A stretch of DNA of 64,000 nucleotides from a virus: UHGV virus genome UHGV-1375844; one strand, given 5' to 3'. A program made the position numbers and the translations under genes. The notes below the pieces were generated by a model. The model saw nothing but the letters and a program-made list of their open reading frames with translations. It was not told the origin of the DNA and did no database searches. This document shows, in pieces, positions 1-10,839 of the stretch. Every line of letters begins with the position of its first letter. Position 1 is the stretch's first letter.

Positions 1-2225
1 TTGGTCAAAATGCCTATCGCCATGAGATCAATATCACTAAGGTGTTCAATCTCTTTGGCTACAGTGCGCAGGTGCTCGCTGAACCCATCTCCGGCAGCAC
101 ATGGCGCACCGTCACTCATGACCAGCATAATTTTTTTGTCTTCTGTTCGTCCCGAAAAGAGTGAGGCCAGTTGCGCGATACTCTCCCCATCAACGTTGTT
201 GAGTAACGGGAACGTTTCTCCGACGCAACCCATACGAGCGCGGATCTCTGGTGAGTTAGCTTTCTCGTTCCAGTTTTTGATGATAGGCAACATCAGGGCT
301 TCAAAACGCGAAAAACCACGTTTCGACATTGTTCCATGATCAGGGGCGCCGAATGTGGTAAAGCCGGTGATGATATTCGGTACGTTAATACGATCGAGTG
401 CATCAGCGATTGTGTAGGCACTGGCGAGTGCCAGATGAATCTTTCTGCCGCCCATTGAACCTGACAAATCGATTACCTGCTGCACACAGGCGTTAACTGC
501 CTTGTGATCTTCTTTCCGTCGAAATACGCGATCATCCTTCATTGCCAGACGATAAAGACTTGAGCCATGAACACGCCCTCGACGTTGGCCAGGGACAAAC
601 TGCACACGATTACGACTGGCGATCGCCCGTTCCAAATCTTTGGCCAGGGTTGAAGACACTCCGGCTGAAAGGTGTTCTTCAACCTGCAATTCAAACAGTT
701 TTCGTCCCTCTGGAACCATACGATAGCGATCAACAGGAGAGTGCATAGGGATTGCGCCAAAAACCTTTTTGGCCCGCTTGATATGCTCTTCCGCCTCGTC
801 AATTGGGCCGATGAAATCGTAAGAGCGGTCATACGGACGGTAATCAGAAAGAGAGCCGCTCATCAGCTCTTTGCTGATGGTTTCCGACAGCGCATCCTCA
901 GTCATTTCATCGGTACCGTCTTCTATTTCATCAAGCGCCTTCAGTGCATCTTCCAGCGTCATTCCGTCTGTTTCTGCAACGAAGCCTGTGTCACCATCAG
1001 GCGTCTCTTCTGTACCCTCGTCCTTTTCGCTCCCGTAGCTCTCTTCATCTTCTTCGCCGGGCACCCCATCGCCATCGCCAGCTCCACCATGTTCGGCAGT
1101 GTCATCTTCTCCTGACCCATAACCATCGGAATCATCGGCGTCATCTTGAATGCCGTCACCAGGGGCCGGAGACCCATCGCCCTCTGAGCCAGAACCTTCT
1201 TCATTTGCAGAATCCGGTGGTGTGGTGCTGCCGTCTTCGTCGGTATCTGGGTGTTCTCCGTGTTCTTCTTTACCTGTTTCTGAAGAATCATTACTTGTAT
1301 CACTTATGTCTTTATCGTCAGTAGGTAAGTCCTTATCTAATAAATCAGGCGAATCAGAATCACCAGAATCGCGATCTTTGGCTTCTTCTTCTTTGTCTCC
1401 GCCTTCTTCTTTCCGCCCTGGTGTGGCTTCTTCACGGCTGGGTTTTTCTGGCGCTTCAGGTTTATCTCCAGACTCATCATCGCGCTTGGAGGGCTTCTTT
1501 GCAGAAGATTTCATTTCAGGAAGTTTACCTTCTGGTTTTTCCTTCATGTCTTTCATGATCTGCGCAATAGCCGCGGCAACTTTGACGCAGTCTTCAGTAC
1601 TCGACATGTTGCGAACGGCAGCGTCGATACCGTGTTCTTTAAGCAGGGCGACGGGTTTTGAGATGTAATGCCAGTTATCTTCCATAAACTCGACGAAAGG
1701 GCTTTGGCCATCCCAGGCTCTGACTACAGGGCACAGGAAAAACTTCAGAAACAGATCTCGCTGATCCCCGCGACAGATAGATACTGCCTCGACTACTTTC
1801 GTCTTAAAGTATTTGTCGATAATGAGGTTTTGGGTTGCCAGAAGGTTACGACGAGTCCCATTAAAAACCTGCCCCATCCTGCGTTCGATAAAGACATCTT
1901 CCAGGGCATTCCAGAGACCTGTAGATGGCGCTTTTCCTTTCTCGCGCATCTTCATGGCGACCTTCGGATCAGTAAAAAGGATATGGGCTACCTCATGGTC
2001 TAGAAAGCCGCGTACCGCGTTCATCAGCGTAGGTGTTGCATCATCAGGTATGGATGGTATGTTGACCAACACCGGCTCTCCACGCTTGTTGTAGCGTACA
2101 AATGCTTCATTACCACGCTCCGCTACAGGGATGCTTTTTCCGGAAAGCATGGCGACTACTCGTTTAACGCAATCGCGAAAGTCCTGTACCTCTTTCAGTA
2201 CAGCTTTAGAAGATGCTTTAGACAT
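1..2225 (-). CDS. VWA-domain protein, CobT-like; C-terminal end lies beyond the window start
   Basis: Uninterrupted minus-strand frame from ATG at 2225 (MSKASSKAVLKEVQDF...) to the window edge, absent from the ORF track because it has no in-window stop; MIDAS-like DLSGSMGG motif; ~150-aa D/E/G/S-rich acidic linker; AAGGA 8 nt upstream of the ATG. Confidence 0.6.
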   Translation of the reverse strand, partial: MSKASSKAVLKEVQDFRDCVKRVVAMLSGKSIPVAERGNEAFVRYNKRGEPVLVNIPSIPDDATPTLMNAVRGFLDHEVAHILFTDPKVAMKMREKGKAPSTGLWNALEDVFIERRMGQVFNGTRRNLLATQNLIIDKYFKTKVVEAVSICRGDQRDLFLKFFLCPVVRAWDGQSPFVEFMEDNWHYISKPVALLKEHGIDAAVRNMSSTEDCVKVAAAIAQIMKDMKEKPEGKLPEMKSSAKKPSKRDDESGDKPEAPEKPSREEATPGRKEEGGDKEEEAKDRDSGDSDSPDLLDKDLPTDDKDISDTSNDSSETGKEEHGEHPDTDEDGSTTPPDSANEEGSGSEGDGSPAPGDGIQDDADDSDGYGSGEDDTAEHGGAGDGDGVPGEEDEESYGSEKDEGTEETPDGDTGFVAETDGMTLEDALKALDEIEDGTDEMTEDALSETISKELMSGSLSDYRPYDRSYDFIGPIDEAEEHIKRAKKVFGAIPMHSPVDRYRMVPEGRKLFELQVEEHLSAGVSSTLAKDLERAIASRNRVQFVPGQRRGRVHGSSLYRLAMKDDRVFRRKEDHKAVNACVQQVIDLSGSMGGRKIHLALASAYTIADALDRINVPNIITGFTTFGAPDHGTMSKRGFSRFEALMLPIIKNWNEKANSPEIRARMGCVGETFPLLNNVDGESIAQLASLFSGRTEDKKIMLVMSDGAPCAAGDGFSEHLRTVAKEIEHLSDIDLMAIGILT

Positions 2226-2814: not shown

Positions 2815-3195
2815 ATGGCTACCAATGAAACAAAACAAGGTCGCTACGCCGCCTATATCGACTCTCTCATCACCATTTCTCCAAAAAGTCAGGCCACTAT
2901 TGCTAAGGAAATTGGGTACAAAAACCCCAATAATCTATCGCTTATCAAAAGTGGCAAAATTCCTCTGCCGGTGGACAAGGTTCGCCCGTTGGCCAACTCT
3001 TTGGATGCTGATCCAGTACGTCTCATGCTCATGGTTCTCGAAGAGCGTCACCCTGAGCTTCTTGAGTTCTTCCGTGATGAAGGCACAGCTCCGCTTTCCC
3101 AAGACGAAAAACAGGTATTGGATGCTTTTCGTAAGCGTTTCGATGGTCAACAAGGTGCTTCAGAACAGGTCGTCGAGGCCATCAAGTCAATGTGA
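2815..3195 (+). CDS. Putative HTH transcriptional regulator (candidate lysogeny-switch protein)
   Basis: N-terminal segment SQATIAKEIGYKNPNNLSLIKSGK resembles an XRE-type helix-turn-helix; divergent promoter region with 2340..2561; convergent with and adjacent to the integrase; variant of the intergenic palindrome (agtaagcacttac, 2771-2783) upstream. Confidence 0.5.
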   Translation: MATNETKQGRYAAYIDSLITISPKSQATIAKEIGYKNPNNLSLIKSGKIPLPVDKVRPLANSLDADPVRLMLMVLEERHPELLEFFRDEGTAPLSQDEKQVLDAFRKRFDGQQGASEQVVEAIKSM

Positions 3196-4293
3196 GAAAT
3201 TTATACGAATAAGCTCTGTCGCTAGACGATCTCCCTTGAAATTATGGTCTATCTCGTCTAAATCTGGTTGTTCTACGATGGATGCGATGTACGCCGAAAA
3301 TTTACATAAGGCGTCTCGCATTTCATCCATATAGTCGTGACGGTCGTAAACCCGATCTATACCTTCAAGGCTATGGTTCATGATTTTACGAGAGACTTCC
3401 TGATTAATACCCAGGGCAGGGAAATAGCTACGCGCAGTTCTTCGCAGATCGCGTGGGGTGAAAACCTCAACCTCCATCAACTCCGGACGTTCCAAAATCC
3501 TCCGGAGCGCCTGTGATATGGCTACTTTAGACATTGGCATGTCCTTATCGCGTTTCTTGTTTGAGGGCACCAGCCACTGGCTGTCTTTCCCATATTTAAA
3601 CAGTTCCTCGACGCACTTCCTCATCAGCGGGCTTAACGGTAGAGCATGTTGCCTGGCCGATTTATTACGTGTGCCTTGATTCCATACATCACGTTGAAGG
3701 TTGAACTCACTCTTCTTGGCCCGGAGCACTTCATCGGGTCGCCTGGCAGCCACGAGACATAATCTGGCCGCCCACTTTGTCCCTTCGCATACGTTGAAAT
3801 AATCCCAGACGTTCCAAAAAACCCAAACTTCGGCGTCCGTTAGCTTCCGTTCCCGGGGCGTAGGTTTGGCGCCACCAGCGACTTTGTTGAGCGACATATC
3901 GTTCAACGGCGACGTTTCGATGACCCCCTGGAAGGCGCACCAGCCCAAAAACTGCTTCATCAGGGAAAACACACGCCTGCCCATGACGATCTTCCCTTCC
4001 AGAATGAGCGGGTTCACCAGCTGGTTGACGAGAACCCTACTAATGTCACTTACTTTTACATCAGAGATAAAAGGTAAAACATGTATCAAAACACAATGGA
4101 CGGCGATCTCCGGTCGGCGTCTTGTTATGAGTAAAGATAAGCGAGTGAATAACAAGAAGGCATCTGAAAACTTCATGTCGCCACTTACCAGAGAGGCTGC
4201 CATCGCATTCATTTGCGAAGCCCGTTCCAGAAACTCAATCGCTTCTCGTGAGGTGTTTTCGGCTGCGCGTGCTCGATCAAACGAATTTTTCAT
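3187..4293 (-). CDS. int: Tyrosine recombinase / phage integrase (P4-like)
   Basis: C-terminal FTPRDLRRTARSY ... NHSLEGIDRVYDRHDY matches the box II / catalytic Tyr region of tyrosine integrases, but with Arg where the first box II His is usual; 368 aa. Confidence 0.75.
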   Translation of the reverse strand: MKNSFDRARAAENTSREAIEFLERASQMNAMAASLVSGDMKFSDAFLLFTRLSLLITRRRPEIAVHCVLIHVLPFISDVKVSDISRVLVNQLVNPLILEGKIVMGRRVFSLMKQFLGWCAFQGVIETSPLNDMSLNKVAGGAKPTPRERKLTDAEVWVFWNVWDYFNVCEGTKWAARLCLVAARRPDEVLRAKKSEFNLQRDVWNQGTRNKSARQHALPLSPLMRKCVEELFKYGKDSQWLVPSNKKRDKDMPMSKVAISQALRRILERPELMEVEVFTPRDLRRTARSYFPALGINQEVSRKIMNHSLEGIDRVYDRHDYMDEMRDALCKFSAYIASIVEQPDLDEIDHNFKGDRLATELIRINFSH

Positions 4294-4559
4294 AGTCCAA
4301 TCACTTAGTTAGCCGTAACACTGTATGTATAAACAGTATATTAGGCATTGTTTCTTATGGGATCAAGCCTAACGTTACAGTGATTTTACCAATGATTCCA
4401 TACTTAATAGGTATGGAATCATTAGAGGGCATTTTTTTGAATTTTTACCAGTATTTGGGGGGAGAGATTATGGAAACAGTGACCAGTTGCAGAAACGATT
4501 AAAAAAGAGTGGCTAAGCGCGGTAAGCCCAAACCGAATGAAGAGTTACCGCGCGAAATT

Positions 4560-7066: not shown

Positions 7067-7205
7067 TTATCGTGGCTTTGTGCTAGGTTAAAACAGCTTT
7101 GGGGAGCTGGTGCGCTTAAGGCCTTCCAGAAAACTCAAACTAGCTGAAATAGTAGGGTCAATTAGGTATCATTCCTTTTCAAATTTAACCAAAGACTCTT
7201 ATAAA

Positions 7206-8438
7206 ATGCCTGCTTTGTTAATTCTCATAATTGGGACATTGATGATTATTTTCTGGGATGTGATTAAGGAAAACGTAGAGGTTATAGGTACGCTTGCCAC
7301 TTCACTTGCCTTTTTTGCTACTGCCTGGGCTGCTTACGAGGCAAGGCATAGTGCAAAGGCGGCAATGAAGGCGACCCAGCTGACGGCTGATTCACTTCTT
7401 GAAATGAAAAAAGCCTCTTTTAAGGAGTGGTACGGCATTTTACTTGAACAGCATAATAAATTACTTGAGGATGTTAATAAGACCTTATTGGATGACAATG
7501 AACTTAATACCAGGTTGAATATTAATGTCATAAGAGGTATTTATTATCACGTAACCAAAAATCCTGCTTACATTAAGTATATTAATCACATAATTTTAAT
7601 CCTGAATTATGTAGATAAAGACTTTTATCTGCCGTCCTCGGCGGAAAATGAAAAGAGATCTTATATAGAACAGTTGCGCAACAGCATTAGCCCAAAAGTA
7701 AGCCTGCTGATTGCTATTTTTGGCCTTAATATCGACAATAATAAAACTTATGATGCAAAGAAACTTTACAACCTTCTAAGCAAATATAACTTTTTTGAAA
7801 ATGAGCTATTTTTTGAAGTTGCAATATCAAAAGTTCATTACTTAGACACTTATGTCGCCGAGATATTTGACAAAGAATACCGAAAAGACGTTGAATTTTA
7901 TGTTGATGAAACGGTTTGTGGTCGTGCGCTCTCTTTTATCAATACGACATGCCGACACCATAGGATTACTTTCGCAGTTCAGTGGTCTTACAACAACCCC
8001 TGCCAAAAGCATTTGCTGAAAAGATTCAATGACCTACCTATGCACATGAGAAACGTCATTGGGCTGAACATGGAAAAAGCAGCCGAGAAAGTGGCTACGT
8101 TTAATTCTGAGTTGCCTGGTTTTGTCGGCTGGGAAATTAAGATTGCTAATAATAAGGTGAGAGTAATTAAGGATGAAAAAGAACTGAAAAGGCTAATAAA
8201 GCTTTACTATAAATACCCCTTTGACCCTCGACAAACTGGTATCGTGTTAACCAATGGTTTCACCAATAGATTCGCCGATGAGATTAGGAATAGTATGTCT
8301 AGCTATGCTTTACATAAAGCCTATCTAGAACTCAGCTCTAATCCGAACAAAGATCAGGTAATTGATGAGATTGTGTCAGAGGTTGAAAAAATGGTCGATA
8401 AATTTAAAACAGAACTTAATTCTTTCTGCTTTAACTGA
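7206..8438 (+). CDS. Hypothetical membrane-anchored protein, AT-rich moron
   Basis: Only plus-strand gene in a minus-strand block; markedly AT-rich, K/N/I/Y-rich; N-terminal hydrophobic helix (PALLILIIGTLMIIFW); own terminator; ORF track begins at GTG 7110, first ATG at 7206, no clear SD. Confidence 0.55.
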   Translation: MPALLILIIGTLMIIFWDVIKENVEVIGTLATSLAFFATAWAAYEARHSAKAAMKATQLTADSLLEMKKASFKEWYGILLEQHNKLLEDVNKTLLDDNELNTRLNINVIRGIYYHVTKNPAYIKYINHIILILNYVDKDFYLPSSAENEKRSYIEQLRNSISPKVSLLIAIFGLNIDNNKTYDAKKLYNLLSKYNFFENELFFEVAISKVHYLDTYVAEIFDKEYRKDVEFYVDETVCGRALSFINTTCRHHRITFAVQWSYNNPCQKHLLKRFNDLPMHMRNVIGLNMEKAAEKVATFNSELPGFVGWEIKIANNKVRVIKDEKELKRLIKLYYKYPFDPRQTGIVLTNGFTNRFADEIRNSMSSYALHKAYLELSSNPNKDQVIDEIVSEVEKMVDKFKTELNSFCFN

Positions 8439-8446
8439 CTAAAAGA

Positions 8447-8474
8447 AAAGGGGCCGAAGCCCCTTTGGATTTTG
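8447..8474. terminator. Bidirectional rho-independent terminator
   Basis: ggggc-cgaa-gcccc hairpin flanked by an A-run (8441-8449) and a T-rich run (8464-8473); sits between convergent genes 7206..8438 (+) and 8639..9250 (-). Confidence 0.7.
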
Positions 8475-8638: not shown

Positions 8639-9250
8639 TTACGATTTGCCGGCGTTAACTACCACGCCCTGGCGACGAGAGTCAGCTTCGGCAATCTTCA
8701 GTCGAGTTTCGCGTTCGGCCTTCAGCTCGCCCTGCAATTGGGCCACCTGCGACTCAAGGAACTCGATACGAGAGTCTTTCGCGGCGCTGGATGCGTTCAG
8801 TTCCGCCATTTCCACACGATGATCAGACTTCAGCTGGTTGACTTCCGCAGTAAATTTGCTGGCAGCTGCGCTATAGCCAGCTTCGCGAGCTGTGTTAACC
8901 GCCTCTTCGTTGTTGTCCAGCGCGTTTTCAAGATCGCGCTTAAGCTGAGTCAGCTCGACGTTGGAAATGCTGGCCAGACCGCGCTTCTTCATCAGATCCG
9001 CAAGTACGCCATCTTCGTTTTCGATTACCTTCAGACGCAGTTCCGCAGCCTTTTCTCGCTCTTTACTTGCGAACTGGCTATCCAGACCAGCCAGCTCAGC
9101 CTGGCGATATTCAATTTCTTCGGCCAACGTAACGCTGGTTTGTGAAAGGGTGTTCAGCTCGGTCGCAACCTTCGCCATATCACCGGCAGCTTTAACCATT
9201 GCTTTGGTGGAACGCTCAGTTAGGGAGATGACTTTCTTAACTTCGGACAT
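8639..9250 (-). CDS. Hypothetical coiled-coil protein
   Basis: 203 aa, heptad-rich (AELAGLDSQFASKEREKAAELRLK..., VAQLQGELKAERETRLK); immediately downstream of the tRNA cluster. Confidence 0.5.
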   Translation of the reverse strand: MSEVKKVISLTERSTKAMVKAAGDMAKVATELNTLSQTSVTLAEEIEYRQAELAGLDSQFASKEREKAAELRLKVIENEDGVLADLMKKRGLASISNVELTQLKRDLENALDNNEEAVNTAREAGYSAAASKFTAEVNQLKSDHRVEMAELNASSAAKDSRIEFLESQVAQLQGELKAERETRLKIAEADSRRQGVVVNAGKS

Positions 9251-9275
9251 GTGTTTTCCTTCGTCGCTTTTATAT

Positions 9276-9362
9276 TGGCGGAAGGTAATGGAATCGAACC
9301 ATCACCGCGCTCGCAGTGGGACGGTTTTCAAGACCGCTTGAGCACCATGCTCCCTACCTTCC
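9276..9362 (-). tRNA. tRNA-Ser: tRNA-Ser (anticodon UGA), class II with long variable arm
   Basis: Reverse complement gives GGAAGGT...GGTCTTGAAAACCG...GGTTCGATTCC...ACCTTCCGCCA; 7-bp acceptor stem, encoded CCA, anticodon loop CTTGAAA. Confidence 0.7.
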
Positions 9363-9604
9363 GTTATTTAGTGTGGTGGCCGGCGCTGATCTCCGGCATA
9401 ACAACCCGACTTAAATTCGCGACTTTAAATCGGTTCCTCCGTTTGTCCACTTTAGCCCGGAGTTAGCAACCTCAGTCACTCACCGATATGCCTATCGGTG
9501 GCGCGCATCAGCCTGCGCATTCACCACAACGGTGAGAGCACTCTTGGCGAACCTGTAGATTGGGCTATGATCCCGTTACAAGCGAATGCTCTTACCTGTT
9601 GTGT

Positions 9605-9737
9605 TGGTGCCGGTTAACGGACTCGAACCGTTGACCTCTGGCCTAACATCGGATCGTTGTCATTGACCAGCCATGCTGTCTACCGAAGTAGAAACGATGC
9701 TTTGGCTCTCGCGCTCTACCAACTGAGCTAAACCGGC
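9605..9737 (-). tRNA. tRNA-like element with a ~58-nt internal insertion (disrupted or intron-bearing tRNA)
   Basis: Reverse complement starts GCCGGTTTAGCTCAGTTGGTAGAGC (acceptor + D arm) and ends AACGGTTCGAGTCCGTTAACCGGCACCA (T arm + acceptor + CCA), but 79 nt separate the D arm from the T arm; the insert contains a UUCG-tetraloop hairpin (tctac-ttcg-gtaga). Confidence 0.35.
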
Positions 9738-9739
9738 AT

Positions 9740-9814
9740 TGGCGATGATGGGTGGATTCGAACCACCGACCAGTTGATTAACAGTCAACCGCTCTACCAC
9801 TGAGCTACACCATC
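9740..9814 (-). tRNA. tRNA-Asn: tRNA-Asn (anticodon GUU)
   Basis: Reverse complement GATGGTGTAGCTCAGTGGTAGAGCGGTTGACTGTTAATCAACTGGTCGGTGGTTCGAATCCACCCATCATCGCCA folds as a canonical cloverleaf; anticodon loop CTGTTAA. Confidence 0.8.
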
Positions 9815-9829
9815 AATTTCGCAGCGGTA

Positions 9830-10530
9830 CTGGCTTCAAAGATGAAGTTTTCCCGCAACTTGCACTTTGCGTTAGTGCCAGACGAGGCTTGCGGCTCGCT
9901 CAAATAGAGCGAAGATCTTAAACACTGCTCGGTGCTTCAGAGAGCGCCGGGGAGTCAGATCTTATTGGATGTATGGAATCATCCGTGTTGTGGCAGCTAC
10001 ATGCTAAAACCAGAGGGTATTACTATTGCCACAACGTTGAGGCCACTAAACCAGTAATGTTTGCCCAACATCTTTGTCAGTCGCTACAGCCTCTGTGGAT
10101 TCACCTGTATGATTGAAAGAAACAGTGGCCTCAACGTTGTGTGCTGGCTAACCAGGCCAGCCGGGTTACGTCGCCGATCTTCTTTAACCCAAGACAAAAC
10201 GACATAAGTAATGGAAATGACGTAACAGGATGAACGGTCGATAACTGAAACCGGGATAGGTGAATGGAATGAGGAAACCAACCGCCCATCCTGTTACTTC
10301 ATCGGAGAGGGCATGGGTGGTGCCGTATCATGCCCTCTCCTGCGTTCTGCAATCACACTCGCTCAGTGTGTCCCATTTCGGTGACGAGGCTGGAAACTGA
10401 CCTCGCTGGTGTTTGGCTTATTATGCTACTGCCAGATACTGATTGTCGTTTGCAGTTATCTTTAAACGTTCAAACAGTCGCGTACTAACGAAAACAAAGC
10501 AATCTTATACATATCATAAAAATAAGTAAA
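9830..10530. other. ORF-poor, highly structured non-coding region (candidate ncRNA or origin)
   Basis: Perfect 17-bp inverted repeat acaacgttgaggccact (10031-10047) / agtggcctcaacgttgt (10124-10140); perfect 12-bp-stem hairpin ggagagggcatg (10304-10315) / catgccctctcc (10329-10340); 11-bp inverted repeat gtaacaggatg / catcctgttac; no convincing ORF. Confidence 0.4.
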
Positions 10531-10537
10531 TACTTAT
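10521..10537. repeat. Intergenic palindrome family, copy
   Basis: aataagtaaatacttat. Confidence 0.5.
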
Positions 10538-10839
10538 CTATCGGTTATGCGTTCAGTTGATAACTTTTTGATCAGAGTCCCCTTCGAAGAGGGGGTTCGT
10601 GAGACAGTGGCGGTAAATCGCTTACCGTGGATAGTAATACTCTCGTGCTCCTTCAGTTCCCCATAGCGGATTTCCAATAGGGCGCCAAGACGCCATAGTC
10701 CATCATCGATACGCTTTTTACTGGCAAACTTTATCAGCAACCATTTCACAATAAATTGGCCTGCAGCGAATGCGCACGCAACGCCAGCTGCCGTAAAGTA
10801 GGCGACCAGCCACCAGTCGAGTGAGGTCAGTTCCGTCAT
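10534..10839 (-). CDS. Hypothetical membrane protein (101 aa)
   Basis: N-terminal hydrophobic helix (WWLVAYFTAAGVACAFAAGQFIV); start overlaps the stop of the upstream small ORF (ATGA). Confidence 0.5.
   Translation of the reverse strand: MTELTSLDWWLVAYFTAAGVACAFAAGQFIVKWLLIKFASKKRIDDGLWRLGALLEIRYGELKEHESITIHGKRFTATVSRTPSSKGTLIKKLSTERITDR

What the first reader, a model, noticed from the sequence alone, without database searches (positions are those of the whole stretch)
9830..10530. 700-bp ORF-poor region beside the tRNA cluster packed with long perfect inverted repeats
A perfect 17-bp inverted repeat separated by 76 nt (10031-10047 / 10124-10140), a perfect 12-bp-stem hairpin (10304-10340) and an 11-bp inverted repeat sit in a region with no credible ORF. 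This density of long stems is unlikely by chance at this spacing and suggests a structured non-coding RNA or a replication or recombination site.
Basis: seen in the sequence. Interest (0 to 1): 0.5.

Follow-up and report, generated by a model that had tools for sequence, protein, structure and literature searches.

The report
Phage RNA carrying a tmRNA tag template
The "empty" 700 bp is the gene for a large folded RNA of a phage-plasmid whose front end copies the message part of the bacterial ribosome-rescue RNA (tmRNA) but lacks its tRNA part and begins with a stretch complementary to the host's own tmRNA, so the phage may rewrite the tag that the host puts on unfinished proteins.

Summary
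The region has three perfect inverted repeats with arms of 18, 12 and 11 bp; 1000 dinucleotide shuffles average 0.014 such repeats.

They are helices of a roughly 680-nt RNA read from the minus strand (about 10495 to 9815), from its own conserved promoter into the tRNA cluster. In 29 relatives, 99% of 101 pairs hold and 13 pairs show compensatory changes.

The window is an SSU5/pHCM2-like phage-plasmid. The first ~150 nt of the RNA is a module shared with hundreds of unrelated enterobacterial phages:
- a tmRNA-type linker with the essential A at -4;
- a GCA resume codon;
- a 10-codon tag frame (ANDNQYLAVA, then UAAUAA) under purifying selection;
- a helix around the stop codons;
- a covarying pseudoknot.

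No tRNA-like domain was found in the window or in the DNA held around relatives' copies (up to ~15 kb each). Instead the 5' end is antisense to host tmRNA nt ~81-105 (linker, resume codon, codons 2-5). This is strong in relatives (z about -6) and short in this window.

Best reading, which is inferred: the RNA docks on host tmRNA and supplies a replacement tag template. Rfam, RefSeq annotation and the literature searches show no such family. The 3' 530 nt, which holds the flagged stems, is lineage-specific and its role is unknown.

The parts
10502..10530 (-). Sigma-70-type promoter: -35 TTTACT (10530-10525), 17-nt spacer, -10 TAAGAT (10507-10502). Predicted start at G10495.
   Evidence: Both hexamers are conserved in position in SSU5, Cyrano and pJN2-26. 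Felix O1-type phages (TTGACA-17-TATAGT) and the L016 type have better promoters at the same place. In each case the G of GUUUUCG lies 7 nt after the -10. The site is 8 of 12 to consensus, below the cut-off of the generic scan. The start site is inferred.
10472..10495 (-). 5' leader with two invariant blocks, GUUUUCGUU (10495-10487) and GCGACUGUUU (10481-10472), separated by a variable 5-nt loop. The blocks are antisense to host tmRNA nt 95-105 and 81-92.
   Evidence: RNAduplex maps the blocks colinearly onto E. coli tmRNA. Relatives carry a longer version: 19 of 20 nt match the reverse complement of tmRNA 86-105, with z about -5.5 to -6.2 and Smith-Waterman p < 0.0005. In this window the match is weak on its own (z -1.9, p 0.013). 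The leader does not match the RNA's own tag region.
10454..10471 (-). Single-stranded linker GAACGUUUAAAGAUAACU with A at -4 (10457) and U at -5, the counterparts of tmRNA A86 and U85.
   Evidence: A(-4) is invariant in all aligned family members. A86 is essential for frame setting on tmRNA (PMC2481249). The Rfam tmRNA model aligns here.
10418..10453 (-). Tag reading frame: resume codon GCA (10453-10451), ten codons ANDNQYLAVA, then stops UAA UAA (10423-10418).
   Evidence: Read directly from the sequence. The frame is intact in all true hits of the scans whose patterns leave all or part of the frame free, with synonymous variants. RF00023 model positions 83-140 align at 10463-10412 (9.7 bits, E 0.037 in a 231-nt search).
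10406..10435 (-). Helix-5 equivalent: CUGG (10435-10432) pairs with CCAG (10409-10406), with an inner AGC/GC stem. The stop codons lie in the loop.
   Evidence: 100% paired in A2 and A4. The inner pair covaries CG/UA/UG.
10371..10405 (-). H-type pseudoknot. Stem 1 is CGAGG (10405-10401) with CCUCG (10389-10385). Loop UUCCA (10395-10391) pairs with UGGGA (10375-10371).
   Evidence: In 33 relatives both stems are 100% paired. Stem 1 has three covarying pairs and the pseudoknot stem has two, GC/AU 19:14 and AU/GC 27:6. Stems are invariant or change on one side only within the SSU5 group.
10354..10370 (-). Hairpin CACACU-GAGCG-AGUGUG. In other phage groups its loop forms a second pseudoknot.
   Evidence: Two pairs covary (CG/UA; CG/UA/GC) in A4. 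The loop-to-downstream pairings GCCC/GGGC, CCCUGA/UCAGGG and GGCGGGAG/CUCCCGCC were seen.
10304..10340 (-). CAUGCCCUCUCC).
   Evidence: Helix 6 has five pairs with changes on both sides (GC to AU or UA in 2-8 sequences).
10217..10302 (-). Long 24-pair stem with a variable apical part.
   Evidence: Helix 7 is 99.4% paired, with many G-U/G-C alternations that pair only on the minus strand.
10143..10207 (-). Two hairpins: UUAUGUCGUU (10207-10198) with GGCGACGUAA (10175-10166), and GCUGGC (10161-10156) with GCCAGC (10148-10143).
   Evidence: Helices 8 and 9 are 100% paired. Helix 8 has four invariant U-G pairs, which form only on the minus strand.
10030..10141 (-).
   Evidence: Helix 10 is 99% paired, with three covarying pairs (GC/AU in 12 and 8 sequences).
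9968..9982 (-). Invariant unpaired block AUGAUUCCAUACAUC.
   Evidence: Invariant in A2. It could pair with tmRNA nt 317-330 (-12.3 kcal/mol), but z is only -1.5. This is a lead only.
9815..9878 (-). 3' domain: hairpin GCAC (9878-9875) with GUGC (9865-9862) and loop UAACGCAAA; helix GCGG (9856-9853) with CCGC (9827-9824); UGCG (9823-9820) pairs with leader CGCG (10482-10479); tail AAAUU abuts tRNA-Asn.
   Evidence: Helices 11, 12 and 1 have two, one and no covarying pairs. No terminator was found, so a 3' end made by RNase P at the tRNA-Asn 5' end is inferred. The loop AACGNAAA can pair in cis with the leader UUUUCGUU.

Best explanation
The region is a gene for a roughly 680-nt structured RNA on the minus strand of an SSU5/pHCM2-like phage-plasmid. 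It is transcribed from its own promoter and probably released at its 3' end when RNase P cuts the adjoining tRNA-Asn.

Its first ~150 nt is a tmRNA-derived module without a tRNA-like domain. In order it holds a 5'-terminal antisense seed against host tmRNA, a tmRNA-type frame-setting linker, a GCA resume codon, a ten-codon tag frame (ANDNQYLAVA), stop codons inside a helix-5 equivalent, and a pseudoknot.

Proposed mechanism:
1. The seed anneals to the single-stranded linker, resume codon and first codons of host tmRNA (nt ~81-105). This masks the host tag template.
2. The annealing places the phage linker and resume codon next to host pseudoknot 1 and the host tRNA-like domain.
3. SmpB and the ribosome then resume on the phage template, so rescued proteins receive the phage tag instead of ANDENYALAA.

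Shown here: the RNA structure, the strand, the conserved and selected tag frame, the frame-setting A, the absence of a tRNA-like domain in the sequence available, and the complementarity to host tmRNA. Inferred: expression, pairing in vivo, translation of the tag, and any effect on proteolysis.

I put about 0.9 on the identity (a structured RNA with a tmRNA-like template) and about 0.4 on the tag-swap mechanism. The 3' 530 nt, which holds the flagged stems, is specific to this lineage and its role is unknown.
For: Structure and strand:
- 101 pairs are 99.0% kept in 29 relatives, with 13 pairs and 77 cells changed on both sides (0 of 500 shuffles reach this). Slid controls pair at 33-47%.
- The core in 33 other phages is 98.1% paired with 8 covarying pairs, including a pseudoknot stem.
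- G-U pairs form only on the minus strand.

tmRNA likeness:
- The only Rfam match in 10330-10560 is the tmRNA template region.
- A(-4) is invariant and is essential in tmRNA.
- The stop codons lie in the helix loop.

Selection on the peptide:
- Three scans, two of them not constraining all or part of the frame, always find ten codons plus a stop.
- Synonymous codon variants occur (GCA/GCT, AAC/AAT, GCA/GCC, GTA/GTG, TAT/TAC, TTT/TTC).
- There are two tag clades, AN[DE]xx[YF]LAVA and ANDDLMMVAA-like.

No tRNA-like domain: ARAGORN, even at 85% thresholds, Rfam, and BLAST of E. coli tmRNA against the window and all loci find none.

Antisense:
- The leader is the reverse complement of tmRNA ~86-106 in long-form phages (L010: AGUUUUCGUC..GUUAGCGACU, 19 of 20 nt; the Felix O1 type is similar with one more mismatch).
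- Duplexes reach -37 to -47 kcal/mol, with z -5.5 to -6.2 in four long-form representatives and -3.3 to -4.3 in the others tested (L005, L074, Felix O1-type wV8). Pairing of the leader with the RNA's own template is only -14 to -19 kcal/mol.
- The phage tags differ from the host exactly at the targeted codons.
- The invariant blocks are the predicted duplex segments and the variable nucleotides are the predicted internal loop.
- The promoter puts the seed at the 5' end in three lineages.
- Cofolding favours the heterodimer by -5 to -16 kcal/mol.

Spread: 399 phage records, 808 plasmids and 246 of 5426 complete E. coli genomes, always next to tRNA genes or in ORF-free gaps.
Against: - There are no expression data. 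A Y. pestis sRNA catalogue lists two pMT1 sRNAs, neither at this locus.
- In this window the antisense is only 9 + 10 bp and is not significant alone (z -1.9; Smith-Waterman p 0.013, and about 0.13 in other SSU5-type members).
- The apparent extension into pseudoknot 1 in long-form phages is ambiguous, because that region of tmRNA is self-complementary.
- The leader can also pair in cis with a 3' hairpin loop.
- Nobody has shown that a template docked in trans can be read. Whether the duplex fits on the ribosome is unknown.
- The model gives no role to the 530-nt extension.
- The sequences used for covariation are related, so shuffle controls overstate significance.
Confidence: 0.42

Rival explanations
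1. It is an anti-tmRNA inhibitor or decoy. The 5' seed masks the host resume codon and blocks tagging or ribosome rescue. The template-like part only mimics tmRNA to bind SmpB, S1 or RNase R and is never translated.
For: - The same antisense evidence applies.
- A phage precedent for interfering with host tmRNA exists: the DS6A tRNA-like-domain-only form inhibits E. coli tmRNA (PMC11915505).
- No tRNA-like domain is present.
Against: - A decoy does not explain an always-intact ten-codon frame with synonymous substitutions and conservative replacements.
- It does not explain the invariant frame-setting A or the stop codons kept in the helix loop.
Confidence: 0.2
2. It is the coding piece of a phage-encoded two-piece tmRNA. 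Its acceptor piece is one of the unusual tRNA-like modules nearby or elsewhere in the genome, and the similarity of the leader to antisense host tmRNA is a relic.
For: The neighbourhood is rich in odd tRNA-like RNAs:
- a tRNA-Thr whose anticodon arm is replaced by a 71-nt insert;
- a GUUGUGGUG...CCACCACAC module at 9363-9530;
- conserved-stem hairpins with T-arm-like inserts in relatives;
- a degenerate tRNA with G3-U70, A73 and CCA after the element in phage wV8.
Against: - None of these modules is shared by all lineages that carry the element. SSU5 has only tRNA-Asn, and the insert-bearing tRNA-Thr is in 2 loci.
- None has G3-U70 together with complementarity to the coding RNA.
- ARAGORN's permuted-tmRNA search is negative apart from one spurious call.
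- The promoter leaves no 5' acceptor strand.
Confidence: 0.18
3. It is a structural or processing RNA of the tRNA operon, such as a spacer, scaffold or nuclease decoy, in the manner of other large phage RNAs beside tRNAs. The tmRNA-like part is an inactive relic.
For: - Most of the length, including all the flagged stems, is lineage-specific ornate structure beside tRNAs.
- Such placement is typical of GOLLD/ROOL-type RNAs (own knowledge).
Against: - The tmRNA-like module is the only part shared by five or more unrelated phage groups, and it is the best conserved.
- A relic would not keep the frame, the A(-4) and the antisense blocks.
- No Rfam family matches.
Confidence: 0.12
4. It is a DNA-level element: a lytic replication origin or a recombination or packaging site built from inverted repeats.
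For: The inverted repeats are dense, and both strands fold well.
Against: - Compensatory changes pass through G-U intermediates on one strand only.
- There are no iterons, no A+T-rich unwinding stretch and no skew switch.
- The module also sits inside the tRNA clusters of lytic phages with other replication systems.
Confidence: 0.03

Closest known systems
tmRNA (SsrA; Rfam RF00023), one-piece form of Enterobacteria
   Same: - A-rich linker with the essential A four nucleotides before a GCA resume codon.
- A ten-codon frame beginning ANDx, as in the host tag ANDENYALAA.
- Stop codons in the loop of a helix-5 equivalent, followed by H-type pseudoknot(s).
   Different: - No tRNA-like domain (no acceptor stem with G3-U70, T-arm or ACCA) and no P2 helix.
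- Pseudoknot 1 is replaced by a leader antisense to host tmRNA.
- The tag ends LAVA, not ALAA.
- The score is 9.7 bits against a gathering score of 47.
- In this lineage there is a 530-nt extension unrelated to tmRNA.
Two-piece (permuted) tmRNAs of alpha- and beta-proteobacteria and cyanobacteria
   Same: The template sits on an RNA separate from the aminoacylated 3' end, so function would depend on intermolecular pairing.
   Different: In the known cases both pieces come from one permuted gene and pair through the acceptor stem and P2. Here no acceptor piece is encoded, and the proposed partner is the host's intact tmRNA, bound at its template region.
Mycobacteriophage DS6A tmRNA form made of the tRNA-like domain only, reported to inhibit host tmRNA (PMC11915505)
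   Same: A phage carries a partial tmRNA that is expected to interfere with host trans-translation.
   Different: It is the mirror image. DS6A keeps the tRNA-like domain and lacks the template. This RNA keeps the template and lacks the tRNA-like domain.
Large ornate phage RNAs beside tRNA genes (GOLLD, ROOL)
   Same: Several hundred nucleotides long, with many covarying helices, phage-borne and adjacent to tRNA genes.
   Different: No match to their Rfam models. They carry no template-like frame.
Trans-encoded base-pairing sRNAs with 5'-terminal seeds
   Same: A conserved seed sits at the predicted 5' end and is complementary to a single-stranded region of a host RNA.
   Different: The target is tmRNA rather than an mRNA. 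No Hfq-type terminator module was found. The RNA is ten times longer and carries its own template.

Membership tests
tmRNA (RF00023) | tRNA-like domain: acceptor stem with G3-U70, T-arm, 3' ACCA | tested here: not met
   ARAGORN finds none in the window, even at 85% thresholds, and none in 122 related segments apart from one spurious permuted call. Rfam finds none. BLAST of E. coli tmRNA gives only scattered chance 10-14-mers.
tmRNA (RF00023) | Resume codon preceded by a single-stranded linker with A at -4 (A86) | tested here: met
   GAUAACU|GCA at 10460-10451. A(-4) is invariant in alignments A3 and A4. Its role in tmRNA is described in PMC2481249.
tmRNA (RF00023) | Short tag frame with a hydrophobic, Ala-rich end, conserved as a peptide | tested here: met
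   ANDNQYLAVA plus two stops. The frame is intact with synonymous variants in every true hit of three scans.
tmRNA (RF00023) | Helix 5 enclosing the stop codon(s) | tested here: met
   CUGG/CCAG plus an inner stem. Pairing is 100% for the outer stem and 91% for the inner stem, and the inner stem has one covarying pair.
tmRNA (RF00023) | Pseudoknot 1 before the template and pseudoknots 2-4 after it | tested here: inconclusive
   There is no pseudoknot before the template. One pseudoknot with covariation follows it, and relatives have a second. The count and sizes differ from tmRNA.
tmRNA (RF00023) | Rfam gathering score (47 bits) | tested here: not met
   9.7 bits, template region only.
Two-piece / permuted tmRNA (RF01849-51, RF04321) | Acceptor piece encoded upstream of the coding piece in the same gene | tested here: not met
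   A promoter lies directly upstream of the leader. tmRNA_permuted scores 19.2 bits and beta_tmRNA 13 bits, against gathering scores of 47 and 84. ARAGORN's permuted search is negative.
GOLLD / ROOL and other large phage RNAs in Rfam | Match to the family covariance model | tested here: not met
   No match at E up to 10 in 9200-10700, and none at gathering score in the window or in six related loci.
Trans-acting antisense RNA against host tmRNA | Conserved complementarity to an accessible target, better than chance and better than to itself | tested here: met
   Met in relatives: z is -5.5 to -6.2 in four long-form representatives and -3.3 to -4.3 in the others tested, p < 0.0005 in the Felix O1 and L010 types (0.003 in L006), and pairing with the RNA's own template is only -14 to -19 kcal/mol. 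In this window the complementarity is short: two blocks of 9 and 10 bp, z -1.9, p 0.013.
Trans-acting antisense RNA against host tmRNA | Pairing and effect shown in cells | not testable with these tools
   Needs RIL-seq or CLASH, gel shifts and compensatory mutations.
Replication origin / recombination site | Iterons, initiator boxes, an A+T-rich unwinding element, or a skew switch | tested here: not met
   There are no direct-repeat families beyond chance 10-mers. GC is 0.42-0.50 and the skew is flat across the region.

The most novel reading that the evidence does not exclude
A widespread class of phage RNAs reprograms host trans-translation. With no tRNA-like domain of its own, the RNA docks by a 5' antisense seed onto host tmRNA, silences the host tag template and offers its own. 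Ribosome rescue continues, but the rescued proteins carry a phage-chosen C-terminal tag (for example ...LAVA instead of ...ALAA), which would change their fate at ClpXP/SspB.
Probability: 0.4. Interest if true: 0.92.

Novelty: new variant of a known kind. Interest (0 to 1): 0.82.

Why it matters
tmRNA is universal in bacteria, and until now its template has always been found on the same gene product, or at least the same gene, as its tRNA-like domain.

An RNA that keeps only the template and is aimed at the host's tmRNA would be a new way for viruses to take over a quality-control pathway. It would also show that the template can work in trans.

The idea is directly testable: look for the predicted tag on proteins, and mutate the seed.

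The element is common. It is in about 4.5% of complete E. coli genomes, in 808 plasmids including Y. pestis pMT1-type and Klebsiella phage-plasmids, and in Felix O1-like and Klebsiella phages of the kind used therapeutically. It is unannotated everywhere, so standard tRNA/tmRNA screens of phage genomes miss it.

Tried and rejected
- Rfam at gathering score and at E up to 10: only tRNAs and sub-threshold tmRNA pieces.
- ARAGORN for a tRNA-like domain, including lowered thresholds: nothing credible.
- A phage-encoded tmRNA copy or acceptor piece: BLAST of E. coli tmRNA against the window and 184 loci gave only scattered 10-14-mers. Recurrent ones lie 1.6-3 kb away inside genes.
- 'Module closure': the idea that the conserved hairpin stems (GGUAAGAGCAUUG / CAGUGCUCUUUCC) form an alanine-type acceptor helix with G3-U70 around the template module. 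I dropped it because compensatory changes link the two arms of each local hairpin (L005, L006), the G-U is not kept in L005, and no CCA follows.
- The tRNA-Thr with a 71-nt insert as the missing tRNA-like domain: it occurs in only 2 loci and has a Thr-type acceptor stem.
- Similarity of AGCAUGUAG (10005-9997) to tmRNA 302-310: not conserved among relatives.
- Y. pestis sRNA-seq: the two pMT1 sRNAs are at other loci.
- The genome-contig scan used too loose a pattern.
- Five literature searches found no description of such an RNA.
- A test for wobble-preserving substitutions in the leader was suggestive for the GCGAC block (9 of 10 variants are A-to-G or C-to-U opposite U or G). The sample is too small and the sequences are not independent.
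Full report
WHAT THE WINDOW IS. The window is 99.7% identical over the region to plasmid pSA20094620.2 of Salmonella enterica (NZ_CP030187.1, IncFIB, 106.6 kb). This is an SSU5/pHCM2-like phage-plasmid. Its annotation lists portal, capsid, tape-measure and tail genes plus DnaB-like helicase and DNA ligase, nearly all on the minus strand. The finding lies in the gap between a run of small genes downstream of the ligase (last stop codon at 10534) and tRNA-Asn (9740-9814, minus strand).

THE OBSERVATION. All three inverted repeats exist.
- A perfect 18-bp repeat: 10030-10047 / 10124-10141.
- A perfect 12-bp hairpin: 10304-10315 / 10329-10340.
- A perfect 11-bp core (10222-10232 / 10287-10297) inside a 22-24-bp stem.

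In 1000 dinucleotide shuffles the mean number of perfect repeats with arms of at least 11 bp was 0.014. No shuffle had two, and the longest arm was 13. The 683 nt fold with z = -11.7 on the minus strand and -8.0 on the plus strand. The longest ORF is 65 aa, and relatives annotate nothing conserved there.

IT IS AN RNA, READ FROM THE MINUS STRAND. The gap is conserved at 76-88% identity in 808 plasmids of Klebsiella, Escherichia, Enterobacter, Yersinia (pMT1), Salmonella, Citrobacter and Cronobacter, and in phages SSU5 and Cyrano.

I aligned 29 distinct copies (A2) and counted 101 pairs in 12 helices, taken from RNAalifold plus three helices I added.
- 99.0% of cells pair.
- 13 pairs and 77 cells are changed on both sides; none of 500 shuffles reached 77 cells.
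- Sliding the partners by 1-3 columns drops pairing to 33-47%.

The 12-bp hairpin has five covarying pairs. The 18-bp stem has three, with GC to AU in 12 and 8 sequences. The 24-pair stem has numerous G-U/G-C alternations. Many pairs are invariant G-U or U-G when the minus strand is read and would be A-C mismatches on the plus strand.

The sequences are related, so the shuffle control overstates significance. The slid controls and the double changes do not depend on that.

A promoter is conserved in position among SSU5-type members: -35 TTTACT at 10530-10525, a 17-nt spacer, and -10 TAAGAT at 10507-10502. It scores 8 of 12 and fell below the generic scan's cut-off. No terminator precedes tRNA-Asn, so I infer co-transcription with the tRNAs and a 3' end made by RNase P.

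THE KEY CONTENT: A tmRNA-LIKE TEMPLATE. A distant BLAST of the gap also hit about 110 nt of unannotated DNA in unrelated lytic phages:
- Felixounavirus (wV8, EC6);
- Klebsiella siphoviruses of 46-57 kb (for example Carvaje);
- Ackermannviridae (Taipeivirus UPM 2146).

In each case the hit lies beside tRNA genes or in an ORF-free gap.

Aligned on the minus strand, the shared stretch reads AAAGAUAACU GCA AAC GAC AAU CAG UAU CUG GCA GUA GCA UAA UAA in the window (10463-10418). This encodes ANDNQYLAVA followed by two stops. The E. coli tmRNA tag is ANDENYALAA.

The only Rfam match to 10330-10560 is the template region of tmRNA (RF00023 positions 83-140, 9.7 bits, E 0.037 for that small search). 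That is far below the gathering score.

Downstream elements follow the tmRNA order.
- A helix with the stop codons in its loop: CUGG at 10435-10432 with CCAG at 10409-10406.
- An H-type pseudoknot: CGAGG/CCUCG, with loop UUCCA pairing to UGGGA.
- A hairpin (CACACU/AGUGUG) that forms a second pseudoknot in other groups.

In 33 non-SSU5 members (A4), 24 pairs are 98.1% kept and 8 covary. Two of these are in the pseudoknot stem (GC/AU 19:14 and AU/GC 27:6). No shuffle of 500 reaches the observed count, and slid controls pair at 31-42%.

THE FRAME IS UNDER SELECTION AS A PEPTIDE. A first scan of IMG/VR fixed parts of the frame and gave 122 members with tags AN[DE]xx[YF]LAVA.

A second scan used a pattern wholly outside the frame. 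All of the roughly 87 true hits had an intact ten-codon frame. The same peptide was written with different codons: ANDNTFLAVA from GCA AAC GAT AAT... and from GCT AAT GAT AAC.... GCA/GCC, GTA/GTG, TAT/TAC and TTT/TTC alternations also occur.

A third scan fixed only the leader and the resume codon. It revealed a second clade with tags ANDDLMMVAA, ANDDVVLMAA, ANDDLMLMAA, ANDDLMLAAA and ANDNLMMVAA, again always ten codons.

The nucleotide four positions before the resume codon is A in every aligned member. Its counterpart, A86 of tmRNA, is nearly invariant and essential for choosing the frame, while U85 tolerates C or G (PMC2481249). There is no start codon or Shine-Dalgarno sequence, and no longer frame is conserved upstream. 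These features say the frame is decoded by the tmRNA/SmpB route.

THERE IS NO tRNA-LIKE DOMAIN.
- ARAGORN finds no tmRNA in the window, even at 85% thresholds. In 122 related segments it makes one spurious permuted call.
- Rfam finds none.
- BLAST of E. coli tmRNA against the window and 184 loci returns only scattered 10-14-mers.
- In three lineages (SSU5 type, Felix O1 type, L016 type) a promoter sits so that the G of the invariant GUUUUCG lies 7 nt after the -10 hexamer. This leaves no room for a 5' acceptor strand.
- In some Felix O1-like phages the whole element fits between its own promoter, just downstream of tRNA-Ile, and a tRNA-Arg that starts 154 nt after the resume codon.

THE LEADER IS ANTISENSE TO HOST tmRNA. 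I folded the leaders against E. coli K-12 tmRNA (locus L127).

The long-form leader is CAGUUUUCGUCACGUUAGCGACUUUGCGGACUUUUUAG.... The reverse complement of tmRNA 54-106 is UAGUUUUCGUCGUUUGCGACUAUUUUUUGCGGCUUUUUACGAGG.... The duplexes reach -43 to -47 kcal/mol.

Against dinucleotide shuffles, z is -5.5 to -6.2 for four long-form representatives, -4.3 and -3.7 for two others, and -3.3 for the Felix O1 type. Smith-Waterman p is below 0.0005 for the Felix O1 and L010 types and 0.003 for L006.

The robust part is antisense to nt ~86-106, which covers the -1 triplet GUC, the resume codon GCA and the codons AAC GAC GAA AAC. The apparent extension into pseudoknot 1 is ambiguous because that region of tmRNA is self-complementary.

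The leader pairs poorly with the RNA's own template (-14 to -19 kcal/mol). The phage tags differ from the host's exactly at the targeted codons. The phage -1 triplets vary (ACU, AGU, AAU, AUC) while the leader block GCGAC does not.

In this window the antisense is short. GUUUUCGUU (10495-10487) matches tmRNA 95-105 and GCGACUGUUU (10481-10472) matches tmRNA 81-92. The two sites are colinear and separated by an internal loop. Alone this is not significant (z -1.9, p 0.013). However, these two blocks are invariant in all 29 SSU5-type copies while the loop between them varies, and they align with the stronger leaders of other groups. Cofolding favours the heterodimer by -5 to -16 kcal/mol, with intermolecular pairs running from phage nt 1 to tmRNA nt 104. 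That calculation does not model pseudoknots.

MECHANISM I THINK MOST LIKELY (INFERRED, ABOUT 0.4). The RNA anneals by its 5' end to the single-stranded linker and template start of host tmRNA. That hides the host resume codon.

Because the strands are antiparallel, the phage strand leaves the duplex at the end next to host pseudoknot 1 and P2. From there it runs through its own linker to its own resume codon. The phage linker is 18 nt here and 11-17 nt in other groups; the host linker is 11 nt.

The host tRNA-like domain, SmpB and EF-Tu would deliver alanine as usual, and translation would resume on the phage template. The tag would be (A)ANDNQYLAVA.

From established work on the ssrA tag (Flynn et al. 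2001; my recollection, not checked here), SspB reads AANDxxY, which the main clade keeps. ClpX reads the C-terminal LAA, which is changed here to AVA. The tag may therefore alter, rather than abolish, the handling of tagged proteins. That last step is speculation.

RIVAL READINGS.
- Inhibitor or decoy of host tmRNA (0.2).
- Coding piece of a two-piece phage tmRNA whose partner is unrecognised (0.18).
- Structural or processing RNA with a relic template (0.12).
- DNA-level site (0.03).

The frame conservation argues against the first and third. The lack of any shared tRNA-like partner argues against the second. One-strand G-U covariation argues against the last.

WHAT REMAINS UNEXPLAINED. It is well structured but has no assigned role.

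Its invariant unpaired block AUGAUUCCAUACAUC (9982-9968) could pair with tmRNA 317-330, but not significantly. A 3' hairpin loop (UAACGCAAA, 9874-9866) can pair in cis with the seed. This might mask the seed, or it might be the seed's real partner in this lineage.

There are no expression data. The two pMT1 sRNAs reported in Y. pestis lie at other loci.

COMPARISON WITH WHAT IS KNOWN, AND NOVELTY. The RNA is not a tmRNA. The tRNA-like domain, pseudoknot 1 and the Rfam threshold were all tested and not met. It is not a permuted tmRNA and not a GOLLD/ROOL-type RNA.

It resembles a tmRNA template fused to a 5'-seed antisense RNA. It is the mirror image of the DS6A phage form, which keeps only the tRNA-like domain (PMC11915505).

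It is unannotated in all 246 complete E. coli genomes that carry it. These are 4.5% of the set, and the element is always on plasmids. Five full-text literature searches found no description. Absence from that library is not proof.

I file it as a new variant of a known kind: a tmRNA-derived RNA. If the docking mechanism holds, it would be categorically new.

Noticed in passing
window 9608-9737 (minus strand): A tRNA-Thr gene whose whole anticodon arm is replaced by a structured insert of about 71 nt. The acceptor, D and T arms are intact (Rfam tRNA 46.7 bits). Phage Cyrano has the normal 76-nt tRNA-Thr at this place. The same insert is in one other locus (L041). It is too short for a group I intron.
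   Followed up: partly
window 9363-9607 (minus strand), between the odd tRNA-Thr and tRNA-Ser: Unannotated structured RNA. It starts with a hairpin with a conserved 17-bp stem (ACAACAGGUAAGAGCAUU ... AGUGCUCUCACCGUUGU) and a variable tip. A ~170-nt module then follows, closed by GUUGUGGUG...CCACCACAC, with two hairpin loops that can kiss (GGCUGAU/AUCAGC). In Taipeivirus UPM 2146 and Klebsiella siphoviruses the same modules directly follow the tmRNA-like element. The conserved-stem hairpins recur with swapped inserts, some of them T-arm-like.
   Followed up: partly
L006 (Klebsiella phage UPM 2146, NC_049472.1 88006-91340): A 3.3-kb stretch with no annotated feature next to tRNA-Met/Arg. It contains the tmRNA-like element and the modules above, and may hold further RNAs.
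   Followed up: no
L004:2322-2400 (minus strand; phage wV8, 155-233 nt after its resume codon): A degenerate tRNA (Rfam 31.7 bits, anticodon UCU, no D-arm, long variable arm). Its acceptor end has C1-G72, G2-C71, G3-U70, A73 and CCA, which is the alanine identity set. Related Felix O1-like phages have an ordinary tRNA-Arg there.
   Followed up: partly
window 1076-1089 (plus strand): A 14-nt exact match to the 3' end of E. coli tmRNA (CGCCAGCUCCACCA), inside a coding region and 2 kb from the plasmid's integrase gene (3190-4296). E is 0.07 for the window, so it is probably chance, but tmRNA 3' ends are common integration sites.
   Followed up: no
window 7100-8450: A low-GC island (0.31-0.40 against about 0.50 around it) carrying the only plus-strand gene of the neighbourhood (7242-8438, hypothetical). 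It looks like a recent insertion.
   Followed up: no
window 10278-10287 (minus strand): GGGCGGUUGG, invariant in the 24-pair stem of the extension, is identical in sense to tmRNA 53-62 (pseudoknot 1). E is 0.36. It may be a relic of a tmRNA ancestor or it may be chance.
   Followed up: no
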